A DNA stretch of 64,000 bases from contig JBIKTR010000005.1 of the NCBI GenBank assembly GCA_044348005.1, positions 11,991-75,990 of the forward strand. Direction: 5' to 3'. Under the pieces are notes generated by a model. The model did not search any database. It was given only the letters and a program-made list of their open reading frames with translations, and had not been told where the DNA came from. The position numbers and the translations under genes were made by a program. This document shows, in pieces, positions 21,717-56,985 of this stretch. The DNA is from Vampirovibrionales bacterium. GTDB taxonomy: Bacteria > Cyanobacteriota > Vampirovibrionia > Vampirovibrionales > JAJTHC01. Position 1 is the first letter of the stretch. The number at the start of each line of letters is the position of its first letter.

Positions 21717-21878
21717 TATAGAAGGCTCTGCAAAAGTCTATTTTGCTTTGTTCCTCCTCCCTTAGGGAGGAGGCTAGGAGGAGGGACACCAGCTCTGACG
21801 GGGCATCCCGAATCCCTCACCCCAACCCTCTCCCTAAGGGAGAGGGAGTAAAACGCCCTTTTGCAGAGCCTTCTATAG
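21717..21878. repeat. GC-rich REP/MITE-like element with 21-bp terminal inverted repeats (CTATAGAAGGCTCTGCAAAAG) and internal CCCTCTCCC…GGGAGAGGG hairpins
   Basis: Terminal arms at 21717-21737 and 21858-21878. Internal palindromes cctcccttagggaggagg and ccctctccctaagggagaggg. Confidence 0.75.
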
Positions 21879-30449: not shown

Positions 30450-30720
30450 CACAGAGGGTTCTACCTCACGTGTTAAGTATGGAGTCCCTTCGCGGGGTCT
30501 TGGTGCAAGAGCGAACTAGCCAGCACGTTGAGACACCCAGTTCCGCCATGTTGAGGGACAAGAGCTTGAGGCGTCAACGACAGGGGCTAGTTGCCTTCAC
30601 AACAGCATCGAAATCGCCAGTACCTTGGCGCAACACATCGCGACTCGTTAAGGGGAGCATCGAACAAACACCCCCCTGCCAGAGAGGGAGCACGCATCTC
30701 GTTTCTTATTTCCAGCCCTA
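30450..30720. ncRNA. Candidate structured ncRNA (GC-rich island with nested complementary stems) rather than the predicted CDS 30470..30754
   Basis: GC-rich block in AT-rich surroundings. Long-range pair gcgaactagcc / ggctagttgcc, with a nested cgttgag / ctcaacg-like stem. No good RBS and an odd translated composition. Confidence 0.25.
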
Positions 30721-30787
30721 TTTACAACGTCTGATAATATATATTATGTTCTAATCTACTTTATTAAAAGAAAGGTAACTTTTTAGC

Positions 30788-31456
30788 ATGACTAATTTAA
30801 GTGCAAATGGTGGTTCTTTATCGCAGCCAACTAATCCAACGCGTCGGTTTGGTTCCGAAGCTGTCTCGTATGAATTAAGAGCGTTGACTTCTCCAGATAC
30901 TCTTCCAGCAGATGATGCTGAAACGGCAAGACTTTTAGATGATGGTTGGGCTGATGAGCTTCCTTCTCTCGAAAAATATAAGCGATATGGAGGTAAAGAC
31001 GCGGTTCGTTTTGGGAATCATGAAATCGTTGAAAATACTTATGTCGATGTTATACATGATTCCCCAGTGCATCATTTTTTAGATGCCGTCGAGCCACGTA
31101 TCCCTAAAGATTCCTACGTTAAAAATCCTATTAGCTATTTTACAAGTACTTTAATCAGAGCTAAAGAAAATCAACCCTCTTCACATAATGAGTTTATCGC
31201 TCATCCGCTTGTGGCACAAGCTATGCTAAAGTCTCACGGTAATTTGGGTCGTGCAGAATATAGAGCTTTACCAGTTAATGAGGCATTGGCTAAGTATTTC
31301 CCAAATGTTGTTGAATTATTTACGCAAGTAACGGACCCTGAAAGATGTCGCACTATTTTAGGTGACGCCAGAGCATTGATAGATAAAGCAGATCCTTTCC
31401 ATAGAAAGGGTTTATTCTACCCTGTTTTAGAGATTATTCATCAGTCTATTAGGTAA
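30788..31456 (+). CDS. Hypothetical protein
   Basis: 222-aa ORF, AT-rich. Confidence 0.4.
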   Translation: MTNLSANGGSLSQPTNPTRRFGSEAVSYELRALTSPDTLPADDAETARLLDDGWADELPSLEKYKRYGGKDAVRFGNHEIVENTYVDVIHDSPVHHFLDAVEPRIPKDSYVKNPISYFTSTLIRAKENQPSSHNEFIAHPLVAQAMLKSHGNLGRAEYRALPVNEALAKYFPNVVELFTQVTDPERCRTILGDARALIDKADPFHRKGLFYPVLEIIHQSIR

Positions 31457-31509
31457 GACACGAACTCATCAAAAAGCCCTCGCACATGCGAGGGCTTTGG
31501 CTCTAACAA

Positions 31510-33880: not shown

Positions 33881-33992
33881 GCCTTGTTCCTTCTCCCTTT
33901 GGGAGAAGGTTAGGATGAGGGAAACACTCGCTAAAATGGGTATCGCCGATTCCCTCACCCCAGCCCTCTCCCAAAGGGAGAGGGAGCAAAGC
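33881..33992. repeat. GC-rich REP/MITE-like element copy (CCTCACCCCAGCCCTCTCCCAAAGGGAGAGGGAG core)
   Basis: Shares the core with copies at 21815, 40390 and 56880. Also contains a ttctccctttgggagaa hairpin. Confidence 0.7.
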
Positions 33993-34081
33993 TACTTTTA
34001 CAGCGCTTTTGTACTTTACTACTCTAGCACAAAAATAACTTCACTGGGCTTTATGCCACTAAGAAATAAGGATGATGTTTC

Positions 34082-36437: not shown

Positions 36438-38240
36438 TTGAACTATAATAAACCCATGTACACTTCTTCCGCGCCCCACATTGTGCTTGACGCCACCGCC
36501 CTGCCGTTTGCCCTGCAAACAGGCACCCATAGCCACGAAGACTGGCGACTCATGCTCATTTCCCTCAACTGGATTCACGAACGCTATAGCCAGCATCCGG
36601 AAAATATGGGCAAGGTGTACTGGAATAGTCGCACGGTGCAAGGCTTTATGACCCTGCTTCAACTTCACCCCAAGCTCATTCGCCAGTGGAGGCAAGACGA
36701 CCCGCGACTCGAAGAGCTGCTACACCATTCACCCGTGGCCAAAGGCATTTGGCAAGCCTTCCACGCCCTAGAAGCTTCAGCTCATCGCCAAGTGGAAAAA
36801 CTCCCCTTTCACCTGCAAGACAAACTCTACCCGCTCGCGCGATATTTAGAACATCGTTCCACGATGTTTGAACTCAATCGCTATGTTGAACAGGGCGCGA
36901 CTCGTACGATGGTGCATAGCCTTGGCCTGCCTATTTCAGCCGAACACGCCGACACTGTTGACGTCATTACCGTGGCGGATGTTTCCCTGCTTCAGTTGCT
37001 TGAATCCGCCACCACCATTCGTGAGTTGCCCAAAAAACAAGCCCTGCTCAAACAACAATTAAGCTATGTGCATGAAGGGCACCGATTGGTGAGTTGGGAC
37101 GCTGAAACGGCGGATCTCCTCAAAGAAAACCTCCCCCACTTGTACGACGTTCACGTGAATGTGGCTCCACCGTGTTGGCTTATGGAAATGCCGGCAAGCT
37201 TGTCTCAAGGCACTTCAGCAGATGCCCCAGAACGCCTTGAAAAGGCCTTTCAAGCCTGGTGTGTGCAGCATCGCTGGGTGAAGACGAAACATGAACCCAC
37301 CCTAGTGGAAGCGGATGAAGCGTCCCAAGGGGGTGAAACGAGCATTGAATCCGCGTTAGAATCCATGAAAAGTAGCTTGTCACTTTCTAGTGAAGATATT
37401 AAAGAACTGCTTGAATTGGCGGAAGATCCAGATATTGAAGTCGTGTTGCATTATCAAGAAGCTGAATCAGATACGCCAGAAGCACCTGAGCGCATCGATG
37501 CCCTAGAAGCTAAAGAAACGAAAGATTTAACGAAAGAAAATAAAGAATTCGCTAAAGAAAATAAAGAAATGAAAGAAAATAAACTTTATTTTATTTCGTC
37601 TTCTGAATACCTGATTATTTCTTTGAGAGATGAAGCGCATGAAGATTTTGAAAGCACCCTAAGTTTGGCGTTGATGGCACTTTTTAATGCCTATGAATAT
37701 GAACCTGAAGAAGCCGATGGGGAAGGGGTGGGCATTCAACGCTTGGCCTACCACCTGATTCGCCAAAACGGGCGAGCGGTGGCCCAGCAAGGCCAACGGC
37801 GCTTAATGATTTTTTATAGCCCAGGGCAGTTTTTACACATCCGTGCGGAAGTGAAGAAGCATCCGCTTTATGCGTATGTGGCGGAACGTGTTATTTTAAT
37901 GCCTTCTACAGCGTATAATAAGGCCATGTTTTACCCAAAGGCGCTGGCCTTTTGCGTCGTGCCAACAGGTAAAACCTTCTACCCTACCATTTTAGAAGCC
38001 ATGGCTTATTCGCTCCCGATTGTGGCGCCAAAACGCCTTTCTTTTGAAGTTTTGGCCAAAGAAGGAGGCTTCTATTTTAACCCAGAACGCCCCACAAAAC
38101 TGCCCACCGTGCTTTACAAACTTTCCCAAGCCGAGACAAATCGAAGCAAGCGTGCTAAACTAATGGCACGACGTACGGCTGAAACGCGTAATTGGCAACG
38201 CTTTGGTGAACAATTATGGAAGGCCTACGAGTTACAATAG
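36438..38240 (+). CDS. Glycosyltransferase family 4-like protein carrying an in-frame repeat-element insertion
   Basis: C-terminal GT4-type EAMAYSLPIVA motif. Low-complexity insert EAKETKDLTKENKEFAKENKEMKENK at nt 37508-37620. Confidence 0.5.
   Translation: MNYNKPMYTSSAPHIVLDATALPFALQTGTHSHEDWRLMLISLNWIHERYSQHPENMGKVYWNSRTVQGFMTLLQLHPKLIRQWRQDDPRLEELLHHSPVAKGIWQAFHALEASAHRQVEKLPFHLQDKLYPLARYLEHRSTMFELNRYVEQGATRTMVHSLGLPISAEHADTVDVITVADVSLLQLLESATTIRELPKKQALLKQQLSYVHEGHRLVSWDAETADLLKENLPHLYDVHVNVAPPCWLMEMPASLSQGTSADAPERLEKAFQAWCVQHRWVKTKHEPTLVEADEASQGGETSIESALESMKSSLSLSSEDIKELLELAEDPDIEVVLHYQEAESDTPEAPERIDALEAKETKDLTKENKEFAKENKEMKENKLYFISSSEYLIISLRDEAHEDFESTLSLALMALFNAYEYEPEEADGEGVGIQRLAYHLIRQNGRAVAQQGQRRLMIFYSPGQFLHIRAEVKKHPLYAYVAERVILMPSTAYNKAMFYPKALAFCVVPTGKTFYPTILEAMAYSLPIVAPKRLSFEVLAKEGGFYFNPERPTKLPTVLYKLSQAETNRSKRAKLMARRTAETRNWQRFGEQLWKAYELQ
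37508..37620. repeat. AT-rich ACGAAAGAAA-type palindromic element inserted in frame inside CDS 36438..38240
   Basis: Units gaaacgaaagatttaacgaaagaaaataaagaa, then a complementary arm tttattttatttcgtc. Confidence 0.7.
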
Positions 38241-38276
38241 CAAGCCCCCTTTTCTTGTGAAAAAAGGAACGAAAAC

Positions 38277-38792
38277 GTGTTTTTAAAACCCGACTACATT
38301 TTTAGTGATTTAACGCAATTAAAACCTGAACATCTTGAAAAAATAGGCGTAAGCGGCCTTATTTTTGATTTGGACAACACACTCATGCCCCCCCACACTC
38401 AGCGATTGCAAGACTACGTTTCACAATGGCTAGAAGGCCTCTGCCAAGCGGGATTTCCCTTTGTTGTGGTGAGCAATAATAAGGATCTCGCCTATCTCAA
38501 GCAGGCGGAACATTTGTTTAATGTGCCTGTGCTTGGCCCAGCCAGAAAGCCCAGCACGCGCATGATTAAACAAGCCATTGCGTGGCTCCAACTACCGCCC
38601 CAAGCCGTTGCGGTGATTGGAGATAGACCGCTTACGGATTTGTGGTCAGGGCAGCGGGCGGGGTGTAAAACCATTTTAGTTGATCCGTTAATGAGGGCAA
38701 ACGAACGTGGGATCATCCACCTTTTACGAACATTGGAACGCCTGCCTGTTAGCGTCCCTAAACACACCCAAGAACACCTTTATTCCCTGTGA
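38277..38792 (+). CDS. HAD-superfamily phosphatase (YqeG-like)
   Basis: FDLDNTL motif I and VVVSNN. Confidence 0.6.
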   Translation: MFLKPDYIFSDLTQLKPEHLEKIGVSGLIFDLDNTLMPPHTQRLQDYVSQWLEGLCQAGFPFVVVSNNKDLAYLKQAEHLFNVPVLGPARKPSTRMIKQAIAWLQLPPQAVAVIGDRPLTDLWSGQRAGCKTILVDPLMRANERGIIHLLRTLERLPVSVPKHTQEHLYSL

Positions 38793-38802
38793 TGAAGCGG
38801 GG

Positions 38803-40074
38803 TTGACAGCTTTCCTTCAACCATTAAACGGCCGGTTTATAGGCGTGATGAGTGGCACTTCGCTTGATGCCGTGGATGTTGTGGTGGCGGATTTAGCCCT
38901 TTTGCCCGTGCAGAAAACGAAAAAAGATAAAGAAACGAAAGACTTAACGAAAGAAACTAAAAATAAAATATCTTTATTCTCTTTAGTTTCTTTCGTTTCT
39001 TTATTTTCTTTCGTTGAACGAAATATAAAACATTATGCGCACCCGTACCCTGAAAATCTAAAGAATCAAATACTCGATTTGCAAAAGGGCTCACGCCTTT
39101 CTTTAGCCCACTATGTGGACGTAGAAAAAGCACTGAGCCTGCTGTACGCTGAAGCGGTTGAAACGGCGCTAAGGCAGTGGCAGATTGAAAAATCGACTGT
39201 TGTGGCGGTGTGTAATCACGGCCAAACCGTGTTTCATCAACGGGATGAAACGGGTGATATGGGGACGATTCAACTGGGGGATGCGTCTCGCTTGGCTGAA
39301 ACACTCGGCATGCGAGTCGTCGCCGATTTTAGGCGCGGAGACATTGCCGTAGGGGGTCAAGGCGCGCCGTTACTGCCGTTTTATGACGCTTTACGCCTAA
39401 GTCAAGCCGAACAAACGATTGTGGCGCACAATTTAGGGGGCATTAGTAATGTAAGCGTTTTGCCCGCGCATGCCCTTGAAATGGATCCTTTTGCCTTTGA
39501 CACGGGACTGGCCAACCTCTGGATCGATCGTGCGATGCAGGCGTATTTTGGCAAGCCCTTCGACGAAGACGGCTCAATCGCGCGGCAGGGGAAACCGATA
39601 GAGGCACTGGTGACGGCTATTTTAGCGCATCCGTTTCATCAACAACACCCCCCCAAATCAACGGGGCGAGACGATTTTAGTGATGAAGCGTTGCATGCCC
39701 TTGTCCGTCAATACGCCAACGGGTCGAGCAAAGAAGCCATTGTCGCCAGTTTTACACACGCCACAGCGCTAAGCATGGTCAAGGCGTATCAAGCTTTTAT
39801 ACTGCCCCGCGTGGGCCACGTGGATGCCATTTTCATGAGTGGGGGAGGGGTTGATAACCGCTATTTAATCGAGTTATTTGAAACCTACTGGCAGCAGGAA
39901 GGGCTGGGTGTTTTGCCTGAACTGAAGCGAACGGAAGCGGTGGGCATCCCCAACAAAGCGAAAGAAGCACTGGGGTTTGCGTGGTTGGGTTGGGCCAAAT
40001 GGCACGGCTTACCGAACAATGTGCCGAGTTGCACAGGGGCGGGGGCCTATGTGTCTGGTGGCGTTATCTACTAA
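38803..40074 (+). CDS. anmK: Anhydro-N-acetylmuramic acid kinase with an in-frame repeat-element insertion
   Basis: GRFIGVMSGTSLDAVDVV N-terminus. Start assigned to an in-frame TTG just after the HAD stop; the ORF track starts at 38707 and the start is uncertain. The KETKDLTKETKNKISLFSLVSFVSLFSF insert is encoded by a palindromic element. Confidence 0.7.
   Translation: MTAFLQPLNGRFIGVMSGTSLDAVDVVVADLALLPVQKTKKDKETKDLTKETKNKISLFSLVSFVSLFSFVERNIKHYAHPYPENLKNQILDLQKGSRLSLAHYVDVEKALSLLYAEAVETALRQWQIEKSTVVAVCNHGQTVFHQRDETGDMGTIQLGDASRLAETLGMRVVADFRRGDIAVGGQGAPLLPFYDALRLSQAEQTIVAHNLGGISNVSVLPAHALEMDPFAFDTGLANLWIDRAMQAYFGKPFDEDGSIARQGKPIEALVTAILAHPFHQQHPPKSTGRDDFSDEALHALVRQYANGSSKEAIVASFTHATALSMVKAYQAFILPRVGHVDAIFMSGGGVDNRYLIELFETYWQQEGLGVLPELKRTEAVGIPNKAKEALGFAWLGWAKWHGLPNNVPSCTGAGAYVSGGVIY
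38912..39035. repeat. AT-rich ACGAAAGAAA-type palindromic element inserted in frame inside anmK
   Basis: aaagaaacgaaagacttaacgaaagaaactaaaaataaa paired with tttattctctttagtttctttcgtttctttattttctttcgtt. Confidence 0.75.
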
Positions 40075-40129: not shown

Positions 40130-40470
40130 TAAATGGTTGCACCAGCAGGCGTCCAAGCACTAAATCCGAGCGGGTGAGCGCACTGCGACCCCCGAGCGAT
40201 TTTGCGGACGTCGTGCAACGAGAATGATGCGAGGAGGTGGGTCAAAAGGGGGTGGATTTTCAAGGAGGGGGAAATGAGGGAGGAGAAACGCAATACGTCC
40301 TCCCTTCCCCCTCCTTGAACCGCCTTTGGGGGTTTGGGGAGTCTTTGGCGGCGCAAAGACCCCCAAGCACCAGCGTTAAAAGGAGCTAGAAAGCCACCCT
40401 CACCCCAGCCCTCTCCCAGAGGGAGAGGGGGCTTTGTTCCTTCTCCCAGAGGGAGAGGGAGTAAAACCCC
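40130..40470. repeat. Composite GC-rich repeat block: a ~150-bp unit (40231-40385, about 90% identical to 51209-51360) plus two CCCTCTCCCAGAGGGAGAGGG hairpins
   Basis: Direct alignment of both loci. ORFs predicted inside (40129..40366) are judged artefacts. Confidence 0.8.
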
Positions 40471-40598: not shown

Positions 40599-41261
40599 AT
40601 GCGTAACGCTTGGATTCATTTATTTCACCCAAAACGATTTCGTTCAAAACGCGCCTTTTCACTGATTGAAATGTTTGTTTCACTCGGTTTGCTGGCCGTT
40701 ATTTCCGTGAGTGTTATGCAAGTGTTGCGTTCGGCGATTGAACAAACGCAAAATACCCGCATGCGTATTCATCAAGCCACGGTGTTAAATACGTTTATCA
40801 CTTTTTTTAAGGCCGACGCCAACAATGCCACCCGCATTGCGTGGGATCAAGTCGACCATAATTGGATCGCCTTTGAAAACGATCAAACCGTGATTCGCTA
40901 TAGTATTCAGCCACAAAGCGCTTTTTTAGATCGTGATGTGTTTGTGAGAGAAGCCTTGATTAAAACAGCCCCTTTGCCGTATGTGATTACGTCAAGTTCT
41001 GCCATGCCCACGACTTTTGACCCGCCTGATGTACCGATGACGAACTTCATGCCTGCTGAATATGCCAGTCACATTGATTTTCGCTGCGAAGACCCTTGCT
41101 TTGATTTTCAAGCAGGGTTTCGCGTGCAATGGAATGAACCACAGGTGGAAACCGTCAGCAGTAACCCGTATGATAGCATGGTTTCCATTGTATTTGGGGA
41201 AATGGGGCATCGGCACCCAGTGGTGTTGGTCTTCAAAACACTCACCGTGCCGATTCTTTAA
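40599..41261 (+). CDS. Pseudopilin/prepilin-like protein (N-terminal cleavage/methylation-type motif)
   Basis: KRAFSLIEMFVSLGLLAVISV has F+1, E+5 and a hydrophobic helix. The leader is unusually long and has Ala at -1. Confidence 0.4.
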   Translation: MRNAWIHLFHPKRFRSKRAFSLIEMFVSLGLLAVISVSVMQVLRSAIEQTQNTRMRIHQATVLNTFITFFKADANNATRIAWDQVDHNWIAFENDQTVIRYSIQPQSAFLDRDVFVREALIKTAPLPYVITSSSAMPTTFDPPDVPMTNFMPAEYASHIDFRCEDPCFDFQAGFRVQWNEPQVETVSSNPYDSMVSIVFGEMGHRHPVVLVFKTLTVPIL

Positions 41262-41320: not shown

Positions 41321-43204
41321 GTGTTCAACTTTCGGGTTGAACCCCCTATCGTACAAGTGATGCTCTCTATGTCTAACCCCTTTCTGCTTTCTACCGTGTT
41401 TTCTCGCTTGCCTTTTTATGCGCCAAAAAGCACCCCTGCCCAAGAAACTCAAGATTCTACGGCAGATCAACTTCGCTGGTTTAGTCAATTACAAAACGCC
41501 TTTTCCGAAAAACCCGAACAAAAAAAAGCCTTGCTTCACCTATGGAACAAGGGGGTGTTGAGTGACCACAAGGGAGACGATGCCCATTCAACGCTTTTCT
41601 ACCTCAATAAACGCTTACAAGAACCGTGCCTACCCGGTTTGGATCCCCTGCAAACGGTGGAAGAAACCGTCAACTTATTGGCCGATTCTTCGCGGCTGAC
41701 TCAGCACATCAGCCCTCTGAATCAAACCCACCTGCTGGCCATGATGTCAAGCTACCACAACGAGAACGATTCACCTTACCAGCAACAAGCCTTGCCCATT
41801 CCGCAATCCACGCAAGAAGTACAACGCACGCAACTCAATAGTTGTAGCGTACTGGCTGAAATCGGGCGTTTGGTGGACACTCAACCCAAAGAAGTGGCAC
41901 GCATGGTGTATGAAGCGTCAAACCCCACGCAAGACCTTCACGAAATCGTCCACGCCGAAGAACTTTTCCCCGATGCTCCCATTCTGGCCGAACAAGTCTT
42001 AAAAGACTTAAACTTGGACTACCACGTTTTAGATGAAGAGACTCCTTCAAATACAACGGCGCCCACCCGTTTTCGAGTGTCGCTGCCTGTGCCTCATCTT
42101 GGGGTGATTCGTGCCATGAACGCCCAAGCCCTTAAGGATCCCGCAAGCGCTTCAGGCGCCGAATTGCTCTTGGAAGAAGCCCTGCTGTACAATTTTACGT
42201 CCAAAAGCTATGACGCCGGCCGTGACACACGCGATGCCTTGGCTTTGACAAGCGCTGAAATCAACAAAACCCCCAGCCTTACGGTGAAAGACAAGGCCGC
42301 GCTCAATCAACTCATCAACCAAAGCCCGCGGCGCCCAGATCAAGCAAAAGCAGCGATTAAGGGCTATTTAGACTCCATTCAAACCGCTCACCCCGCAGAA
42401 CTTCACGCCCTGTATGCCAGCCTAGAACAAAGCAGTGCGGGCCTTACGCAAGAAGAACAACTGATGATGGAACGCATTTTTGAAGATGACATGGCGCTTG
42501 AAAATGTGACGTATCATCACGTGGGGCAACGAAACGCGAACCCTTCTAAAGCGGTTGAACAACCCGCTGCTTCGTCAGTTTCGAACCCGCCCCCACACGT
42601 GCTACTGGGCTATACCAAGCCTTTTTCGGCTATTAAGCAAGATTTACTCATCGGCTTAGAAAGTCCGCTCACCCAAGTCTTGGCCAACGTGGTTGAACCC
42701 AAGGGAGACGGTTCGTTTGACAAGGGCCACGTGGTTAGAGTGGTGGCGTCTCGCCCTAGTCCGCTGAAAATCCCTCAATTCAACAGCACTGATTTTCTCG
42801 TGCAAGACACTTCCCTGCCTTCAAATGCCCAAGGCAAGGGCAATAATCGCTTGCAATGGTGGCATGAAAGTCAGCTCATTCCGCGTATTCACCACATTAC
42901 CGAAGCCCAACGCGACGCTGAACAAGCCTGGGCGTCCATGACACCCGCCACCGCGGAACACCCCTATGGGTTATTGAATGCCGAACAAGCCAACGACACC
43001 CGCTACACGCTTGATTTCATTACGCCTTCGCCCAATGGCACCCAAGTGCTTGAAACGCCCGAAGCGTTTCATCGACGTGTGCATGATTATCGTCACCAAC
43101 AGGCCAAGCAGGTGGAAGAAGACCTTAGGGAAAAGCAGGGTGGTCCCAGCCAAAGCAAGACAGAAAATAGCCCGGTCCTATGGGGCGCAGCACCCCGCGC
43201 TTAA
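41321..43204 (+). CDS. Hypothetical large protein
   Basis: 627-aa ORF with no recognisable domain. Confidence 0.4.
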   Translation: MFNFRVEPPIVQVMLSMSNPFLLSTVFSRLPFYAPKSTPAQETQDSTADQLRWFSQLQNAFSEKPEQKKALLHLWNKGVLSDHKGDDAHSTLFYLNKRLQEPCLPGLDPLQTVEETVNLLADSSRLTQHISPLNQTHLLAMMSSYHNENDSPYQQQALPIPQSTQEVQRTQLNSCSVLAEIGRLVDTQPKEVARMVYEASNPTQDLHEIVHAEELFPDAPILAEQVLKDLNLDYHVLDEETPSNTTAPTRFRVSLPVPHLGVIRAMNAQALKDPASASGAELLLEEALLYNFTSKSYDAGRDTRDALALTSAEINKTPSLTVKDKAALNQLINQSPRRPDQAKAAIKGYLDSIQTAHPAELHALYASLEQSSAGLTQEEQLMMERIFEDDMALENVTYHHVGQRNANPSKAVEQPAASSVSNPPPHVLLGYTKPFSAIKQDLLIGLESPLTQVLANVVEPKGDGSFDKGHVVRVVASRPSPLKIPQFNSTDFLVQDTSLPSNAQGKGNNRLQWWHESQLIPRIHHITEAQRDAEQAWASMTPATAEHPYGLLNAEQANDTRYTLDFITPSPNGTQVLETPEAFHRRVHDYRHQQAKQVEEDLREKQGGPSQSKTENSPVLWGAAPRA

Positions 43205-43721
43205 CCAAGTAGGAAAGGCGAGGGTAGACGTCTGAAAGTTTGGAGTTTTCGAAGGTTTTGCCTTGGGGGGTGCGAATGTTTTGTTCAATTAGGTAGGCGC
43301 GTACTTCGGCGGTGCTTGCTTTTCCGCCGTTTAGCACAACGGCGCGAAACAGTTCGTAGTTCATGGATTGGCGGTGTCGTAGAACGGCATCTGCCTGTTG
43401 GAAGGCCAGCTCAGGCAAAAACACCCCGCTCGATTCTGGCGCAAGCATCGTTTGAAACGTAGGCTCTGAAGGATCCAGCAAATACGCCGAAGGTTTTGGG
43501 TGCGAGTGATGGGATTGTCTCAATTCCACAGGTTTTTTTAGCAAGTGTAATAAGTGCCCCAGGCTGGCTTGAAAGGCTTCTAACTGCAATACTTTTTCAT
43601 GCAAATCGTCGATTTCTTCAACGTAGCCCGTGAGTAATTTAATGCGTTTTTGCACTTCAGCAAGTTCTTCTTTGCTTTGGGCTAACAATTCGGTGAGGTT
43701 TTGGGCATCCACAATAGACAT
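43125..43721 (-). CDS. Hypothetical coiled-coil / winged-helix-like protein
   Basis: N-terminal coiled coil and a C-terminal segment that may be a winged helix. Overlaps 41321..43204 convergently by 80 bp. Confidence 0.35.
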   Translation of the reverse strand: MSIVDAQNLTELLAQSKEELAEVQKRIKLLTGYVEEIDDLHEKVLQLEAFQASLGHLLHLLKKPVELRQSHHSHPKPSAYLLDPSEPTFQTMLAPESSGVFLPELAFQQADAVLRHRQSMNYELFRAVVLNGGKASTAEVRAYLIEQNIRTPQGKTFENSKLSDVYPRLSYLVKRGVLRPIGPGYFLSCFGWDHPAFP

Positions 43722-43747
43722 TCATCATTTCCTTTAAACGCAAGATT

Positions 43748-43930
43748 CTTTTCTTTAGTTTAGCATAGTTTTTCAAAAAATACGCTATAAAACGAAAGAA
43801 AATAAAGAAACGAAACAAACGAAAGAAAACGACCTAAAACTAAAGAAAAACGAAAGATAACGAAAGAAAGCTAAACAAAACGAAAGAAAACTATAAAAAA
43901 TAAATAAAACGAAAGAAAATAAAGAAGAAG
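43748..43930. repeat. Intergenic copy of the AT-rich ACGAAAGAAA palindromic element (tandem degenerate 11-mers)
   Basis: aaacgaaagaaaataaagaaacgaaacaaacgaaagaaaacga…cgaaagataacgaaagaaag…aaacgaaagaaaataaagaa, with the complementary arm ctttagttt at the 5' end. Confidence 0.8.
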
Positions 43931-43987: not shown

Positions 43988-44989
43988 ATGCCCACTGTCG
44001 CTTTTTTAGATCAAGCCCATCTGCCCGAGTTTACCCCCCTGTACGACGCCTTTCAACGAGAGGCCACCCTGCTTTACCAGTGGCATCACTCCCCACTCGA
44101 TTTACAAGACTTGTGGCAACGGCTCCCCCAAAACGACTTGGGCGTCTTGCTTTTGAAAGATGATGAGCATACGGTTGTGGGGTTTTGGTTCTATGCCTTT
44201 CCGCCTCATGGGGCGTTGGAAATGTCGGTTTTTTATTTGAAAGATGGCTTTTTACCTAGTGAAGACTGGGTGAAAGACGCCTTTCAACAAGCCTTTCACG
44301 CATGGAAGACTCTGGATCACTGGCAAGACTTTAGCTTTGGCATTTATGGCCTTCAAACCCAGTGGGCAAAGGCTTTAGAAGGGCTTGTCGTCAACGGATG
44401 CTCCCCAATTGGGCTGGCAGAACAGCACATTTTACGACGAGACATTATCGCTGGTGACGCCCTGCCGATTTTGAATCTCTATAAAACGCCTGTCTTCCCT
44501 TATGCGATTCATCCGTGGAAAGACAAGTACCAAGCGGGTTTGGCGGTTGCTCTTGCCGCCGCTTTTAAAGACGAGCCCGACGCCTTGTGGGACGCTCGCT
44601 TTCGCAGTGAAGCAGGTGCGAAAGAGGTGTTGACGCTCATTGAAACGCATCAATTCGGGCAGTTTCACCCTAAATTGACCTATGTCGTGCTGGACGAACG
44701 CCGAAAGCCAGTACCTGTGGGAGCCATTTTCTTGTTGCAAGGTGAGGTGGACACGGTGAACATCCCCTTGTTTTTTGTGCATCCTAATCATCAAGGCAAG
44801 GGCTTGGCGAAAATGCTGATGCTCAACTTCATGCAGGGCTTGATTCAAGCGGTGCATGCCAAGCAGTTGGGGGCGACTTCGGTGAATGCGACGACGAACC
44901 CTGTGCAGGTCAAGGCGTTGAAGGTCTACACCGACTTGGGCTTTACCCTCCATGAAGCGGGCTTTCACGCCTATAGCAGTAAGGGGTGA
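43988..44989 (+). CDS. Hypothetical protein with C-terminal GNAT-like acetyltransferase motif
   Basis: VHPNHQGKGLAKMLM (a Q/RxxGxG/A-like acetyl-CoA binding motif). Confidence 0.4.
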   Translation: MPTVAFLDQAHLPEFTPLYDAFQREATLLYQWHHSPLDLQDLWQRLPQNDLGVLLLKDDEHTVVGFWFYAFPPHGALEMSVFYLKDGFLPSEDWVKDAFQQAFHAWKTLDHWQDFSFGIYGLQTQWAKALEGLVVNGCSPIGLAEQHILRRDIIAGDALPILNLYKTPVFPYAIHPWKDKYQAGLAVALAAAFKDEPDALWDARFRSEAGAKEVLTLIETHQFGQFHPKLTYVVLDERRKPVPVGAIFLLQGEVDTVNIPLFFVHPNHQGKGLAKMLMLNFMQGLIQAVHAKQLGATSVNATTNPVQVKALKVYTDLGFTLHEAGFHAYSSKG

Positions 44990-45063: not shown

Positions 45064-45336
45064 ATGACCGTCGTAGGTGTTTCAAAACAAGCCATTAAAG
45101 ACTTAAATAAGGCTCCTTCAAACATTCAGATTAAGTTTGCCACTTGGAAATTAGCGGTTGAAGTTCAAGGGATTGAAATCGTACGTCAACGTTCAGGCTT
45201 TCATGACGAACCCTTGAAAGGAAAACGTAAAGGGCAACGTTCCGTAAGGCTAAACAAGCAGTGGCGTGTGATTTATGTCGAAGTCAATGAAATCCTTAAC
45301 ATTACCGTATTGGAGGTGAATCCGCATGACTACTAA
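45064..45336 (+). CDS. higB: HigB-like toxin (paralog of 31895..32167)
   Basis: LKGKRKGQRSVRLNKQWRVIYVE. Lies upstream of and overlapping the HTH antitoxin. Confidence 0.65.
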   Translation: MTVVGVSKQAIKDLNKAPSNIQIKFATWKLAVEVQGIEIVRQRSGFHDEPLKGKRKGQRSVRLNKQWRVIYVEVNEILNITVLEVNPHDY

Positions 45337-45640
45337 AGATGAACTCGGCCACGAACTCGGGGACTATGTTCCGCCTAAGCTGACGATTGGTCAAGTGATT
45401 AAGGCACATCGTGAATGCGAAGACTGGACGCTTGAAGAAGCGGCAAAAAAGTTGGGTATTTCTAAACAAGCCTTGCACCAGTACGAAACAGGTCAAAGGC
45501 TCCCCAGTAGTGAACAAACCATTCGCTTGGCGGAAGCGTTGGGATCTTCCCCTGAAGCGTGGCTGATTTACCGCATTGAAACTGAACTTGAAAAGCACGG
45601 CATGTTTTACAAAGTTCGACTAGAAAGACGTCCAGCCTAA
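45326..45640 (+). CDS. higA: HigA-like HTH (XRE) antitoxin
   Basis: HTH segment TLEEAAKKLGISKQALHQYETGQRLP. Confidence 0.65.
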   Translation: MTTKDELGHELGDYVPPKLTIGQVIKAHRECEDWTLEEAAKKLGISKQALHQYETGQRLPSSEQTIRLAEALGSSPEAWLIYRIETELEKHGMFYKVRLERRPA

Positions 45641-50763: not shown

Positions 50764-50874
50764 TGTGTTCGATAGATGAAACGGTCTATGGTCTCTTCGT
50801 TGTCGCGACGATTGGTTATGTATAGTTTTTTTCATTTAAGTGGAGTCTAGAAAATCATTGTATTTTAGGGTTTC

Positions 50875-51365
50875 TAGCTCCATTTAACACTGGTGCTTGG
50901 GTTTCTCGTTTGTTTTTATAGCTGGTGCTTGGAGACCTTTGTGCCGCCAAAGGTCTCCAAACCTCTAAAGGCGGCTTAAGGGGCGGCGGGGGGAGGGACG
51001 TGTTACGTCCTCCCTCCCCCCAGTACGCCCCCCTTAAGAATCCCCCATCCCCCCCTCCCTCCCGTTCCAAACCACGAGGCAAAAATAAACACACAAGGTC
51101 TATAGAAATTGCCACGCTATGCTCGCAATGACGGGCAAAAAGCTTGCCGACAACGCACTAAATGCGAGGCTTCCGAGACATTTTGCCCACGGCAGGAACG
51201 AAGATAGGGCGAGGAGGTGGGGATTCAGGGGGGATTTTCAAGGGGGGACGAAGGGGAGGAGAAACGCAATGCGTCCTTCCCCGTCCCCCCTTGAACCGCC
51301 TTTGGGGGTTTGGGGAGTCTTTGGCGGCGCAAAGACCCCCAAGCACCAGCGTTAAACGGAGCGAG
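50875..51365. repeat. About 480-bp composite palindromic repeat block: an inverted diverged copy (50882-51075) and a direct copy (51209-51360) of the ~150-bp GC-rich unit, flanking a ~130-bp core
   Basis: 51290-51360 is the reverse complement of 50885-50960. Shares the unit with 40231-40385. ORFs predicted inside are judged artefacts. Confidence 0.8.
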
Positions 51366-51434
51366 AAAACCAAACATACAATGATTTTCTAGACTGCTAC
51401 TGTTTAAATAGAAAATACTATAGCTTTATCGTGT

Positions 51435-56873: not shown

Positions 56874-56914
56874 TGTTTACTCTCTCTCTCACTTAGGGAG
56901 AGGGAGTAAACACA
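56873..56914. repeat. REP-like hairpin copy (GTGTTTACTCTCTCTC…GGGAGAGGGAGTAAACAC)
   Basis: Shares the GGGAGAGGGAGTAAA core with the 21840 and 40450 copies. Confidence 0.7.
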
Positions 56915-56985
56915 AAAGGCAATTCACAGAACTTTCTTAGCACAAAAAAAACTGGAGCCGTCTTTAAGCCTTTGTTACCTTCGAT

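What the first reader, a model, noticed from the sequence alone, without database searches (positions are those of the whole stretch)
37508..39035. Palindromic AT-rich repeat elements inserted in frame into two unrelated protein-coding genes (anmK and a GT4 glycosyltransferase)
The same element type, built on ACGAAAGAAA / AAATAAAGAA units with a complementary return arm, lies inside anmK (38912-39035) and inside the glycosyltransferase (37508-37620). Neither copy introduces a stop or a frameshift. The inserts encode K/E/T-rich peptides (KETKDLTKENK…) followed by a hydrophobic stretch, inside otherwise well-conserved enzymes. A third, longer copy is intergenic (43748-43930). This mirrors Rickettsia palindromic elements, a selfish element that survives by being translated. 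AnmK is also roughly 80 aa longer than typical homologs at exactly this position.
Basis: partly seen in the sequence, partly recalled or inferred. Interest (0 to 1): 0.75.

Follow-up and report, generated by a model that had tools for sequence, protein, structure and literature searches.

The report
In-frame AT-rich hairpin repeats in Vampirovibrionales
A small family of AT-rich 9-10-base repeats, sometimes folded back into hairpins, sits at the same few places in a group of predatory relatives of cyanobacteria, including inside two working genes where it is translated into floppy surface peptides. It resembles the palindromic elements of Rickettsia but is smaller, rarer and old rather than recently inserted.

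Summary
Three loci within 6.4 kb share units A(C/T)(G/T/A)AAAGAAA: four exact copies of a 19-mer, and 10 matches at up to 3 mismatches against 0.05 expected.

Several details need correcting:
- Only the AnmK copy is a true palindrome (DNA fold -27.3 kcal/mol, z -6.3). The copy in the glycosyltransferase-like gene is essentially a one-armed period-9 array. The intergenic copy is a period-10 array with no fold.
- AnmK carries about 30 extra residues at this site, not 80. The rest is a conserved N-terminal extension.
- The 'GT4' label rests on a hit below threshold.

The lineage is Vampirovibrionales. All three loci are occupied in every relative examined (host proteins down to about 47-51% identity) and empty in more distant homologues. 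These are therefore ancient, vertically inherited residents, not recent insertions.

- The likely ancestral form is a 34-nt palindrome, AACTAAAGAAAATAAA-NN-TTTATTTTCTTTAGTT. It has one stop-free frame in either orientation, encoding TKENKxLFSLV.
- The arms covary across lineages.
- Repeat number changes fast: a 9-nt indel separates strains that are 98.6% identical.
- A related genome holds at least two more copies, both intergenic.
- AlphaFold places both inserts in low-confidence surface or linker regions.

Verdict: an RPE-like outcome from a new, low-copy hairpin-minisatellite family. Mobility is not shown.

The parts
36456..38240 (+). Host gene 1: a 594-600-aa protein with a conserved N-terminal domain of unknown function and a C-terminal half that resembles a GT-B glycosyltransferase only weakly. 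The ORF opens at TTG 36438; orthologues start at MYTS (36456).
   Evidence: ORF. Pfam Glyco_trans_1_4 scores 21.2 bits against a 27-bit cutoff, residues 471-555 only. 14 orthologues were found, one of them named 'glycosyltransferase [Vampirovibrionales bacterium]'. Alignment A2.
37506..37600 (+). Repeat tract inside host gene 1. It is a period-9 tandem array (GCT/ACG/AAT)AAAGAA encoding EAKETKDLTKENKEFAKENKEMKENK, followed by a very short return arm (ctttattttatttcg). It is essentially one-armed.
   Evidence: TRF gives period 9/21 at 37512-37583. The fold is not significant (z -1.5). The tract corresponds to residues about 357-385, inside the 326-389 segment with pLDDT below 50. Orthologues have a K/E/T-rich tract of variable length at the same place.
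38277..38792 (+). YqeG-family HAD-IIIA phosphatase gene lying between the two host genes. It carries no repeat. Its 3' end overlaps the long form of anmK by 86 nt.
   Evidence: TIGR01668 E 1e-34. The gene order GT-like, HAD, AnmK, 216-aa pilin-like is conserved in all relatives.
38707..40074 (+). Host gene 2: anmK (anhydro-N-acetylmuramic acid kinase). It is 455 aa from GTG 38707, or 423 aa from TTG 38803.
   Evidence: Pfam PF03702 E 8.5e-86 and NCBIfam AnmK models. The AF2 model has pLDDT 88.7. Target-normalised TM-score to solved AnmK 3QBX, 3CQY and 8BRE is 0.92-0.93. The N-terminal extension motif is shared with P0011-13, P0018 and P0019.
38914..39018 (+). Hairpin element inside anmK. An A-rich left arm of 9-nt units encodes KTKKDKETKDLTKETKNK, and a T-rich right arm of the complementary units encodes ISLFSLVSFVSLFSFV. 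The best-matching arms are 38916-38942 and 38989-39015.
   Evidence: Inverted repeat I16, 27 nt, 93% complementary. DNA fold -27.3 kcal/mol, z -6.3, 0/200 shuffles fold as well. TRF period 9. The insert spans residues 36-67; residues 43-49 and 51-61 have pLDDT below 50. It lies between strands E23-35 and E68-81. A 98.6%-identical strain differs here by one 9-nt unit.
43744..43929 (.). Intergenic copy in the divergent promoter region between a conserved 198-aa gene (43125-43721, minus strand) and a GNAT acetyltransferase gene (43988-44989, plus strand). It has a short T-rich arm (43744-43762) followed by about 13 A-rich units of period 10 (43789-43929).
   Evidence: TRF gives period 10, 13.4 copies. 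No stable fold. No ORF spans it. The orthologous intergenic site is also occupied in L006, L083, L084 and L085.

Best explanation
This is a lineage-specific family of AT-rich, strand-asymmetric short repeats with unit A(C/T)(G/T/A)AAAGAAA, 9-10 nt long. Its simplest form is a 34-nt palindrome, AACTAAAGAAAATAAA-NN-TTTATTTTCTTTAGTT.

The family became established at a handful of loci in an ancestor of this Vampirovibrionales clade. Since then it has been inherited vertically at those loci.

Inside genes it survives for two reasons:
- The palindrome has exactly one stop-free frame in either orientation. That frame encodes a hydrophilic stretch (T/K/E/N) followed by its antisense-coded hydrophobic stretch (L/F/S/V).
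- The two occupied sites are structurally permissive: a beta-hairpin tip in AnmK and a disordered interdomain linker in the GT-like protein.

The tracts then evolve in place. Slippage of whole units gives rapid length change, and selection allows only multiples of 3 inside genes. Fold-back or template-switch events, or selection on the hairpin, keep the two arms complementary.

Shown here: family membership of the three loci; in-frame translation potential; age and site conservation; unit-wise length polymorphism; period 9 in genes against period 10 between genes; arm covariation; permissive protein locations.

Inferred: the original dispersal mechanism, the slippage and template-switch mechanics, and that the element is neutral or selfish rather than useful.
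For: Family:
- Shared 19- to 27-mers and the statistics.
- In the genome-contig scan, clusters of units occur only in a Vampirovibrionales MAG. The other 73 stretches are single matches with no unit cluster, almost all in unrelated taxa (one is a Melainabacteria MAG).

Age and vertical inheritance:
- AnmK orthologues P0001-P0010 (99-51% identity) all carry K(E/Q)NK..LFSL-type sequence at the site. The 13 more distant homologues aligned do not.
- GT-like orthologues down to 47% identity carry it; P0131-P0134 do not.
- Ortholog DNA shows single palindromes in L083, L087, L088 and L081, and triple hairpins in L078 and L084.

DNA-level rather than purely peptide-level identity:
- Lys codons in the elements are 16 AAA to 0 AAG, against 581 to 287 in window ORFs.
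- Intergenic copies use the same units.
- Paralogous copies (35/38) are as similar as orthologous copies between genomes (33-34/38).

Frame filter:
- There is one open frame in either orientation, giving TKENK[P/G]LFSLV.
- The period is 9 in both genes and 10 in the intergenic array.

Fast unit turnover:
- A 9-nt indel (AACGAAACA) separates the window from a 98.6%-identical contig.
- The interior is completely rearranged against L006, whose AnmK is 88% identical, while the flanks are conserved.

Palindrome maintenance:
- Of 12 hairpins, 93.2% of cells are paired and 5 of 16 pairs show changes on both sides. For each measure, 0 to 5 of 500 shuffles reach the observed value, and slid registers give 40-62% pairing.

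Tolerance:
- The AnmK insert has low pLDDT at the beta2-beta3 hairpin tip, with the rest of the fold intact.
- The GT-like insert lies in a linker with pLDDT below 50.
Against: - No direct evidence was found that the family ever moved: no TIR or TSD, no transposase, and no empty or filled site polymorphism among close relatives.
- The long-term retention of near-identical units at separate loci, together with compensatory changes in the arms, could instead mean the sequence is functional as DNA, RNA or peptide.
- Genome-wide copy number is unknown. Only 8-20-kb pieces of related genomes could be read.
- The covariation sample is small (12 related sequences, some from the same genome), and the shuffle control ignores relatedness.
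- Expression of the inserts in mRNA or protein is untested.
Confidence: 0.55

Rival explanations
1. A classical active selfish mobile element (RPE- or MITE-type). A palindromic non-autonomous transposable element recently inserted into anmK and the GT-like gene, and is tolerated because it happens to be in frame.
For: - Dispersed copies with shared 19- to 27-mers lie in unrelated contexts: two genes, a divergent promoter, the accA-tsaD spacer, and the purL/tsaB convergent spacer.
- Hairpin potential is strong in the AnmK copies.
- A single open frame explains the shared reading frame.
- An 8-nt direct repeat CTATAAAA flanks the window's intergenic array, seen by reading the sequence.
Against: - All three window sites are occupied in every relative examined, so the insertions predate the clade.
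- No TIRs or consistent TSDs were found. The CTATAAAA repeat is not conserved in L006.
- No transposase was linked to the element.
- Copy density is low.
- Two of the three copies are one-armed tandem arrays.
- No copy was found on viral contigs.
Confidence: 0.15
2. A functional cis-acting nucleic-acid site. The repeat or hairpin would be recognised by a lineage-specific factor as DNA (phased A-tract or iteron-like sites) or as RNA (an mRNA hairpin), and selection would conserve it both inside and outside genes. One candidate partner is the conserved, unannotated 198-aa protein encoded immediately beside the largest array.
For: - Units stay nearly identical at separate loci across lineages whose host proteins are only 50-65% identical.
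- Paralogues are as similar as orthologues.
- Arms show compensatory changes.
- Only AAA Lys codons are used.
- The intergenic array has a 10-nt period, roughly one helical turn.
- The intergenic array sits in a conserved divergent promoter next to a conserved gene of unknown function.
Against: - Unit number, arm balance and hairpin number vary freely, even between close strains.
- The position relative to genes is inconsistent: promoter, co-directional spacer, convergent 3' ends, and coding interior.
- Intergenic copies do not fold.
- No Rfam family matches.
- The 198-aa protein has no detectable domain.
- Template switching within a palindrome can produce compensatory-looking changes without selection.
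Confidence: 0.15
3. A functional peptide module. The TKENKxLFSLV-type hairpin peptide, or the long hydrophobic ISLFSLVSFVSLFSFV stretch, would give the two envelope-related enzymes a shared property such as membrane association or partner binding, and protein-level selection would keep it.
For: - The module has been retained for a long time in two proteins of one conserved gene cluster related to the cell envelope.
- The 3' end of the element contributes to strand beta3 of AnmK in the model.
- The hydrophobic run in AnmK is 16 residues long.
Against: - Intergenic copies cannot act as peptides.
- Codon homogeneity and DNA palindromy are not explained by selection on the peptide.
- Peptide length and sequence are hypervariable. 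For example, the window and L006 inserts differ almost completely in their hydrophobic part.
- Both inserts have low pLDDT.
Confidence: 0.1
4. Unrelated low-complexity linkers. K/E-rich coding tracts and an A-rich intergenic tract would have arisen independently and resemble each other only through composition.
For: - K/E-rich disordered linkers are common.
- A similar 9-nt AATAAAGAA palindromic satellite exists in an unrelated metagenomic contig, L086. This shows that such architectures can arise independently.
Against: - Exact 19- to 27-mers and a 35/38 match are shared between loci in a 47%-GC genome.
- The same units occur in non-coding copies.
- Shuffles expect 0.05 matches against 10 seen.
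Confidence: 0.03

Closest known systems
Rickettsia palindromic elements (RPE; Ogata et al. 2000; reviewed in PMC10969869)
   Same: - Short non-coding-type repeats found both between genes and inside unrelated housekeeping genes.
- Inserted in frame and translated as part of the host protein at positions compatible with the fold.
- Many copies are old and shared between species.
   Different: - RPEs are about 100-150 bp, fall into defined families, and number tens to hundreds per genome (44 first reported in R. conorii, per PMC10969869).
- Here the core is a 34-nt palindrome built from 9-nt units, which expands and contracts as a tandem array.
- Only a handful of loci were detected.
- Two of the three window copies are not palindromic.
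- The phylum is different (Melainabacteria/Vampirovibrionales).
- Sequence relationship to RPEs was not tested and is not expected.
Bacterial MITEs with intragenic in-frame copies (ERIC, BOX, Nezha and Anabaena MITEs, QMITE1; PMC10969869)
   Same: Small, hairpin-capable, non-autonomous repeats that can create in-frame fusions with host ORFs.
   Different: - MITEs are defined by terminal inverted repeats, target-site duplications and a cognate transposase family. None of these was found here.
- This element is much shorter and behaves like a minisatellite.
Intragenic variable-number tandem repeats / minisatellites (including PARCELs, PMC2996958, whose coding DNA shows dyad symmetry)
   Same: - In-frame tandem units, with length polymorphism between close strains.
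- Dyad-symmetric DNA encoding alternating hydrophilic and hydrophobic peptide segments.
   Different: - PARCELs are 25-residue units in long arrays within ORFs of unknown function, often surface lipoproteins, and are spread by horizontal transfer.
- Here 3-residue units and 11-residue hairpin units sit as short inserts in conserved enzymes and also in intergenic DNA. They are inherited vertically within one clade.
REP/BIME extragenic palindromes
   Same: Short, dispersed, hairpin-forming repeats kept palindromic by compensatory changes.
   Different: - REPs are extragenic, usually G+C-rich, number in the hundreds, and are linked to RAYT transposases.
- This family is AT-rich, low-copy and partly intragenic.
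- The window does contain a separate G+C-rich palindromic repeat family that looks more REP-like (see the items noticed in passing).

Membership tests
Rickettsia palindromic elements (RPE) | Palindromic sequence able to form a stable hairpin | tested here: inconclusive
   Met by the AnmK copy (z -6.3) and by the AnmK and GT-like hairpins of relatives (z -3.3 to -7.0). Not met by the window's GT-like copy (z -1.5) or by the intergenic copies (z +1.1, -0.6, 0.0, -0.9).
Rickettsia palindromic elements (RPE) | In-frame presence inside conserved protein-coding genes without disrupting them | tested here: met
   The ORFs are continuous. Orthologues align on both sides. The AnmK fold is intact, with TM 0.92-0.93 to solved AnmK.
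Rickettsia palindromic elements (RPE) | Insert lies at a surface-exposed, structurally permissive position | tested here: met
   The AnmK insert is at the beta2-beta3 hairpin tip with pLDDT below 50. The GT-like insert is in a linker with pLDDT below 50. These are predictions only.
Rickettsia palindromic elements (RPE) | Unit of about 100-150 bp belonging to the RPE sequence families; tens to hundreds of copies per genome | tested here: not met
   The core palindrome is 34 nt and the arrays are 90-190 nt, built of 9-10-nt units. There are 3 loci in 64 kb, and 5 loci were seen in the related MAG. No complete genome could be scanned, and sequence similarity to RPE consensus sequences was not tested.
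MITE | Terminal inverted repeats, target-site duplication, and relationship to an IS transposase | tested here: not met
   Inspection of the sequences shows no common termini and no consistent flanking direct repeat. CTATAAAA flanks one copy only and is not conserved in L006. No transposase was seen near any copy.
MITE | Presence/absence polymorphism at orthologous sites (evidence of movement) | tested here: not met
   All three sites are occupied in all relatives with DNA available. The two extra sites in MAG JBIKNF01 could not be compared with other genomes.
Intragenic/intergenic VNTR (minisatellite) | Head-to-tail units with copy-number differences between close strains; unit length a multiple of 3 inside genes | tested here: met
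   TRF gives period 9 in both genes and 10 in the intergenic array. One 9-nt unit indel separates the window from L089 at 98.6% identity. The unit content is different in L006.
PARCEL (palindromic amphipathic repeat coding elements) | Tandem 25-residue amphipathic motif in ORFs lacking assigned function | tested here: not met
   The peptide units here are 3 or about 11 residues long and lie in AnmK and a GT-like protein. The Pfam scan of both hosts shows no other repeat family. The PARCEL definition is taken from PMC2996958.
REP/BIME | Extragenic, high-copy imperfect palindromes associated with RAYT | tested here: not met
   Two of the three copies are intragenic, the family is AT-rich, and copy number is low. 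The window was not systematically searched for a RAYT gene.

The most novel reading that the evidence does not exclude
The repeat is not junk but a conserved cis-acting site of a Vampirovibrionales-specific system. It would be a hairpin or phased A-tract motif, kept complementary by selection, embedded both in coding sequence and in promoters, and read by a dedicated factor. One possible factor is the conserved, unannotated 198-aa protein encoded right beside the largest array. The in-frame peptides would then be a by-product of placing a nucleic-acid signal inside genes.
Probability: 0.15. Interest if true: 0.75.

Novelty: new variant of a known kind. Interest (0 to 1): 0.5.

Why it matters
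In-frame palindromic repeats inside housekeeping genes are a classic curiosity that is well documented mainly in Rickettsia.

A second, unrelated case in a free-living or predatory sister lineage of Cyanobacteria shows that the phenomenon is more general. This case also has a much simpler anatomy: a 34-nt palindrome made of 9-nt units, with a single open frame. That makes the rules visible.
- The frame filter is explicit.
- The period is 9 inside genes and 10 outside.
- The element is tolerated at a beta-hairpin tip and in a disordered linker.
- The arms stay complementary over long evolutionary time.

The case offers a tractable system for asking whether such elements are maintained by selection on a hairpin, by template-switch self-correction, or by use of the encoded peptide. 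It also bears on how palindromic DNA can add hairpin-shaped extensions to proteins.

On the practical side, these tracts are hypervariable strain markers, and they are likely sources of assembly and annotation artefacts in Vampirovibrionales MAGs.

Tried and rejected
1. Protein-level census of other host proteins. A concatenate of element peptides searched against 5.8 billion proteins returned nothing at E <= 10, not even the known positives. The 37-aa AnmK insert searched against 1.84 billion representatives returned 0 hits. Both searches are uninformative, because the queries are too short and too biased in composition.
2. Metagenome scan with the palindrome pattern. It gave one hit, L086, an unrelated 71-nt satellite probably not from this lineage.
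3. Genome-contig scan with the 19-mer. Four of the 77 stretches came from Melainabacteria, and only the three from one Vampirovibrionales MAG held unit clusters. The source genome itself is not in the collection, so no whole-genome copy count was possible.
4. Phage origin. 29 viral contigs had single chance matches with no unit clusters, and the palindrome pattern gave no hits. Rejected.
5. Replication origin or DnaA-box cluster near the intergenic array. DnaA boxes occur 17 times against 13 expected, with none near 43.8 kb, and the GC skew is weak. Rejected.
6. Known RNA family. Only generic miRNA-precursor-like hits, all below threshold, on the AnmK hairpin. Rejected.
7. Promoter or terminator role for the intergenic array. 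The consensus scan found nothing above expectation.
8. Target-site duplications or common termini. None are consistent across copies, judged by reading.
9. Presence of the L024 and L068 host genes (accA/tsaD, purL/tsaB) in the window, to test for empty sites. They are not in the window.
10. Annotation of the neighbouring 198-aa protein with Pfam, NCBIfam and PDB sequence searches. Nothing was found.

Full report
**What is in the window**

Three AT-rich tracts stand out from flanks of about 50% GC. Each reaches 19-21% GC in 80-nt windows.
- 37506-37600 lies inside a 600-aa ORF.
- 38914-39018 lies inside anmK.
- 43744-43929 lies between two divergently transcribed genes.

All three are built from the same unit, A(C/T)(G/T/A)AAAGAAA.
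- The 19-mer AACGAAAGAAAATAAAGAA occurs four times exactly. With up to three mismatches it occurs ten times, against 0.05 expected, and only in these three tracts.
- The 10-mer ACGAAAGAAA occurs nine times against 0.34 expected, again only there.
- A 38-nt stretch is 35/38 identical between the two genic copies.

Nothing else in the 64 kb belongs to the family.

**Corrections to the description**

- *Palindromy.* The AnmK copy is a real hairpin. Its arms, 38916-38942 and 38989-39015, are 93% complementary. Single-stranded DNA folds at -27.3 kcal/mol, z -6.3, and no shuffle folds as well. The copy in the other gene is essentially a one-armed tandem array (z -1.5; 18 of 200 shuffles fold as well). 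The intergenic copy has no structure even when its short T-rich left arm is included.
- *Period.* Tandem Repeats Finder gives period 9 for both genic tracts and period 10 for the intergenic one.
- *Hydrophobic stretch in the GT-like protein.* This stretch (YxIKPSEYLIxSLRD) is native sequence, present even in orthologues that lack the repeat.
- *AnmK length.* AnmK is about 30 residues longer than usual at this site (residues 36-67 counted from TTG 38803). Much of the rest of the 455-aa ORF's extra length is an N-terminal extension. Its motif STFYEHWNAxL recurs in several homologues, so the long ORF starting at GTG 38707 is probably real and overlaps the upstream HAD phosphatase gene by 86 nt.
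- *'GT4' label.* This rests on a Pfam hit below threshold, over the last 85 residues only.

**Host genes and lineage**

- anmK is secure. Pfam gives E 8.5e-86. The AlphaFold model has pLDDT 88.7 and a target-normalised TM-score of 0.92-0.93 to solved AnmK structures.
- Close relatives of both proteins come from Vampirovibrionales (Melainabacteria) MAGs.
- The gene order GT-like, YqeG-type HAD phosphatase, AnmK, pilin-like protein is conserved throughout the group.

**The sites are old**

- In AnmK, the ten closest homologues (99-51% identity) all carry K(E/Q)NK...LFSL-type sequence at exactly this position. The thirteen more distant homologues aligned do not.
- In the GT-like protein, orthologues down to 47% identity carry a K/E/T-rich tract at the same place in the linker. 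Four more distant ones do not.
- The intergenic site is also occupied in L006, L083, L084 and L085.

These are therefore not recent insertions into this genome. They are residents shared by a whole clade.

**Anatomy revealed by the relatives**

In lineages whose AnmK is 54-66% identical, the AnmK site holds a single short palindrome.
- L088 has GATAAAGAAAATAAA-TG-TTTATTTTCTTTATC, a perfect palindrome.
- L087 has AGCTAAACAAAATAAA-CA-TTTATTTAGTTTAGTT.
- L083 has a 12-bp perfect stem.
- L081 has a diverged but still significant hairpin (z -4.1).

In the L078/L084 lineage, the same 34-nt palindrome, AACTAAAGAAAATAAA-NN-TTTATTTTCTTTAGTT, occurs once in the GT-like gene and three times in anmK. These fold with z -3.3 to -7.0.

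In the window's own lineage the arms have grown by addition of 9-nt units.

The palindrome has one stop-free frame, and because it is a palindrome this holds in either orientation. It always encodes TKENK[P/G]LFSLV. This explains why both genes read the element in the same frame, with no need to invoke selection on the peptide.

**How it evolves**

- *Unit indels.* A contig 98.6% identical to the window over 8.8 kb differs in the AnmK element by exactly one 9-nt unit (AACGAAACA), and in the GT-like element by one point change.
- *Reshuffling.* Against L006, whose AnmK is 88% identical, the element flanks are conserved. The interior is rearranged unit by unit, with a different balance between A-rich and T-rich arms, yet the total length is the same.
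- *Arm complementarity.* Across twelve hairpins from six lineages and two genes, 93.2% of positions are paired. Five of sixteen pairs show changes on both sides, for example G-C to C-G and A-T/C-G to G-C/A-T. For each measure, 0 to 5 of 500 shuffles reach the observed value, and slid registers give only 40-62% pairing.
- *Codon usage.* Lysine codons in the elements are AAA 16 times and AAG never, against 581:287 in the window's long ORFs.
- *Paralogue similarity.* The two paralogous genic copies are as similar to each other (35/38) as each is to its orthologue in L006 (33-34/38).

Together these results show that identity is maintained at the DNA level, that the tracts mutate by whole units, and that selection inside genes allows only multiples of three.

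**Other copies**

Unit clusters occurred only in three contigs of one Vampirovibrionales MAG.
- One of those contigs is the syntenic region, L006. The other two are new sites, and both are one-stranded arrays without a fold:
  - between accA and tsaD (L024);
  - between the convergent purL and tsaB genes (L068).
- The family is therefore dispersed, but at least five loci is a floor, not a count.
- Viral contigs hold only single chance matches.
- The metagenome scan with the palindrome found only an unrelated satellite.

**Protein context**

- In the AnmK model the insert forms a low-confidence excursion (residues 43-49 and 51-61 have pLDDT below 50) between strands 23-35 and 68-81, the beta2-beta3 hairpin of the N-terminal ASKHA domain. 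The last few element-encoded residues (FSFV) form the start of beta3.
- In the GT-like model (mean pLDDT 62.8) the element, residues about 357-385, lies within a segment with pLDDT below 50 (326-389), part of a largely low-confidence region between the two folded halves.
- Both are permissive sites. These are predictions, not measurements.

**Interpretation**

The best-supported account is a low-copy, lineage-specific hairpin-minisatellite family.
- It spread to a few loci in an ancestor of this clade by an unknown mechanism and has been inherited vertically since.
- It is tolerated in two genes because of its single open frame and its permissive positions.
- It evolves in place by unit slippage and by processes that keep the arms complementary.

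In outcome this is RPE-like, but it fails the RPE and MITE membership tests on size, copy number, termini and evidence of movement. It meets the definition of a variable-number tandem repeat.

The main unresolved question is why units stay so uniform, and arms so complementary, over this much divergence. Possible answers are template-switch self-correction, exchange between copies, selection on a DNA or RNA signal, or selection on the peptide. I rank the neutral/selfish resident reading first (0.55). A functional nucleic-acid site and an actively mobile element follow at 0.15 each, a functional peptide at 0.10, and coincidental low complexity at 0.03.

**Literature**

- Full-text searches found the RPE and MITE literature and the PARCEL paper, which are the closest concepts.
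- None of the listed papers mentioning Vampirovibrionales and 'repeat' had either term in its title or abstract; none was opened.
- The library is incomplete, so this is absence of evidence only.

Noticed in passing
window 38707-38802 (overlap with the HAD gene, which ends at 38792): The long anmK ORF starts at GTG 38707 and overlaps the upstream YqeG-type HAD phosphatase gene by 86 nt in another frame. Its N-terminal peptide STFYEHWNAxLxASL..TPK...PC is conserved in AnmK homologues P0011-13, P0018 and P0019. Gene callers chose the overlapping start in related contigs (L083; also the P0008 contig). This is an unusual conserved N-terminal extension of AnmK, of unknown role.
   Followed up: partly
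window 21745-21878, 33881-33999, 40391-40470, 56884-56915: A second, unrelated repeat family: G+C-rich palindromes of the type CCCTCTCCC-AAA-GGGAGAGGG, arranged as inverted pairs about 26 nt apart (repeat finder D7, D9, D14, I3, I7). It looks REP/BIME-like and is intergenic, with one copy just downstream of anmK.
   Followed up: no
window 50844-51395 and 40217-40396: A unit of about 550 nt is bounded by 63-nt inverted repeats (50844-50906 / 51333-51395, 87% complementary). A 130-nt segment of it is repeated at 40267-40396 (88% identical) (I1, D5, I5, D20). It looks like a MITE or a solo IS end.
   Followed up: no
window 30756-31507 compared with L089 2574-2679: The 98.6-99.2%-identical contig L089 has about 106 nt where the window has about 750 nt. 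This is a strain-specific insertion, deletion or replacement, next to an AT-rich patch at 30702-30821.
   Followed up: no
window 37283-37320: A second variable spot lies in the GT-like linker. A net 18-nt in-frame difference from L089 is spread over several small gaps. It is independent of the repeat element.
   Followed up: no
window 43125-43721 (minus strand): A conserved 198-aa protein with no Pfam, NCBIfam or PDB sequence match is encoded immediately beside the largest repeat array in all relatives (199 aa in L083, 210 aa in L084). By eye its C-terminal half looks like a winged-helix domain. This was not tested.
   Followed up: partly
window 45064-45640: A HigB-like toxin (Pfam 26.3 bits against a 27-bit cutoff) and an HTH_31/HTH_3 antitoxin pair. 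In relatives the same pair sits upstream of the GT-like gene (L078, L080, L082, L089), so it has moved relative to the conserved cluster.
   Followed up: partly
L086 1357-2562 (metagenome contig Ga0126342_10019137): An unrelated 71-nt satellite of 17 copies. Each unit is a palindrome of 9-nt AATAAAGAA repeats plus a G+C-rich spacer, and it lies next to other satellites. It probably does not come from this lineage. It shows that the same architecture can arise independently.
   Followed up: partly
window 3007-4946: Dense, imperfect 3/6/9/21-nt tandem repeats (TGCTGG, TGGTGA and similar), probably a long low-complexity coding region.
   Followed up: no
window 40599-41261: A 220-aa protein with a prepilin-type N-terminal methylation motif and weak ComGE/ComGF/GspJ-like matches. 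It is conserved directly downstream of anmK in all relatives as a 216-aa gene.
   Followed up: partly
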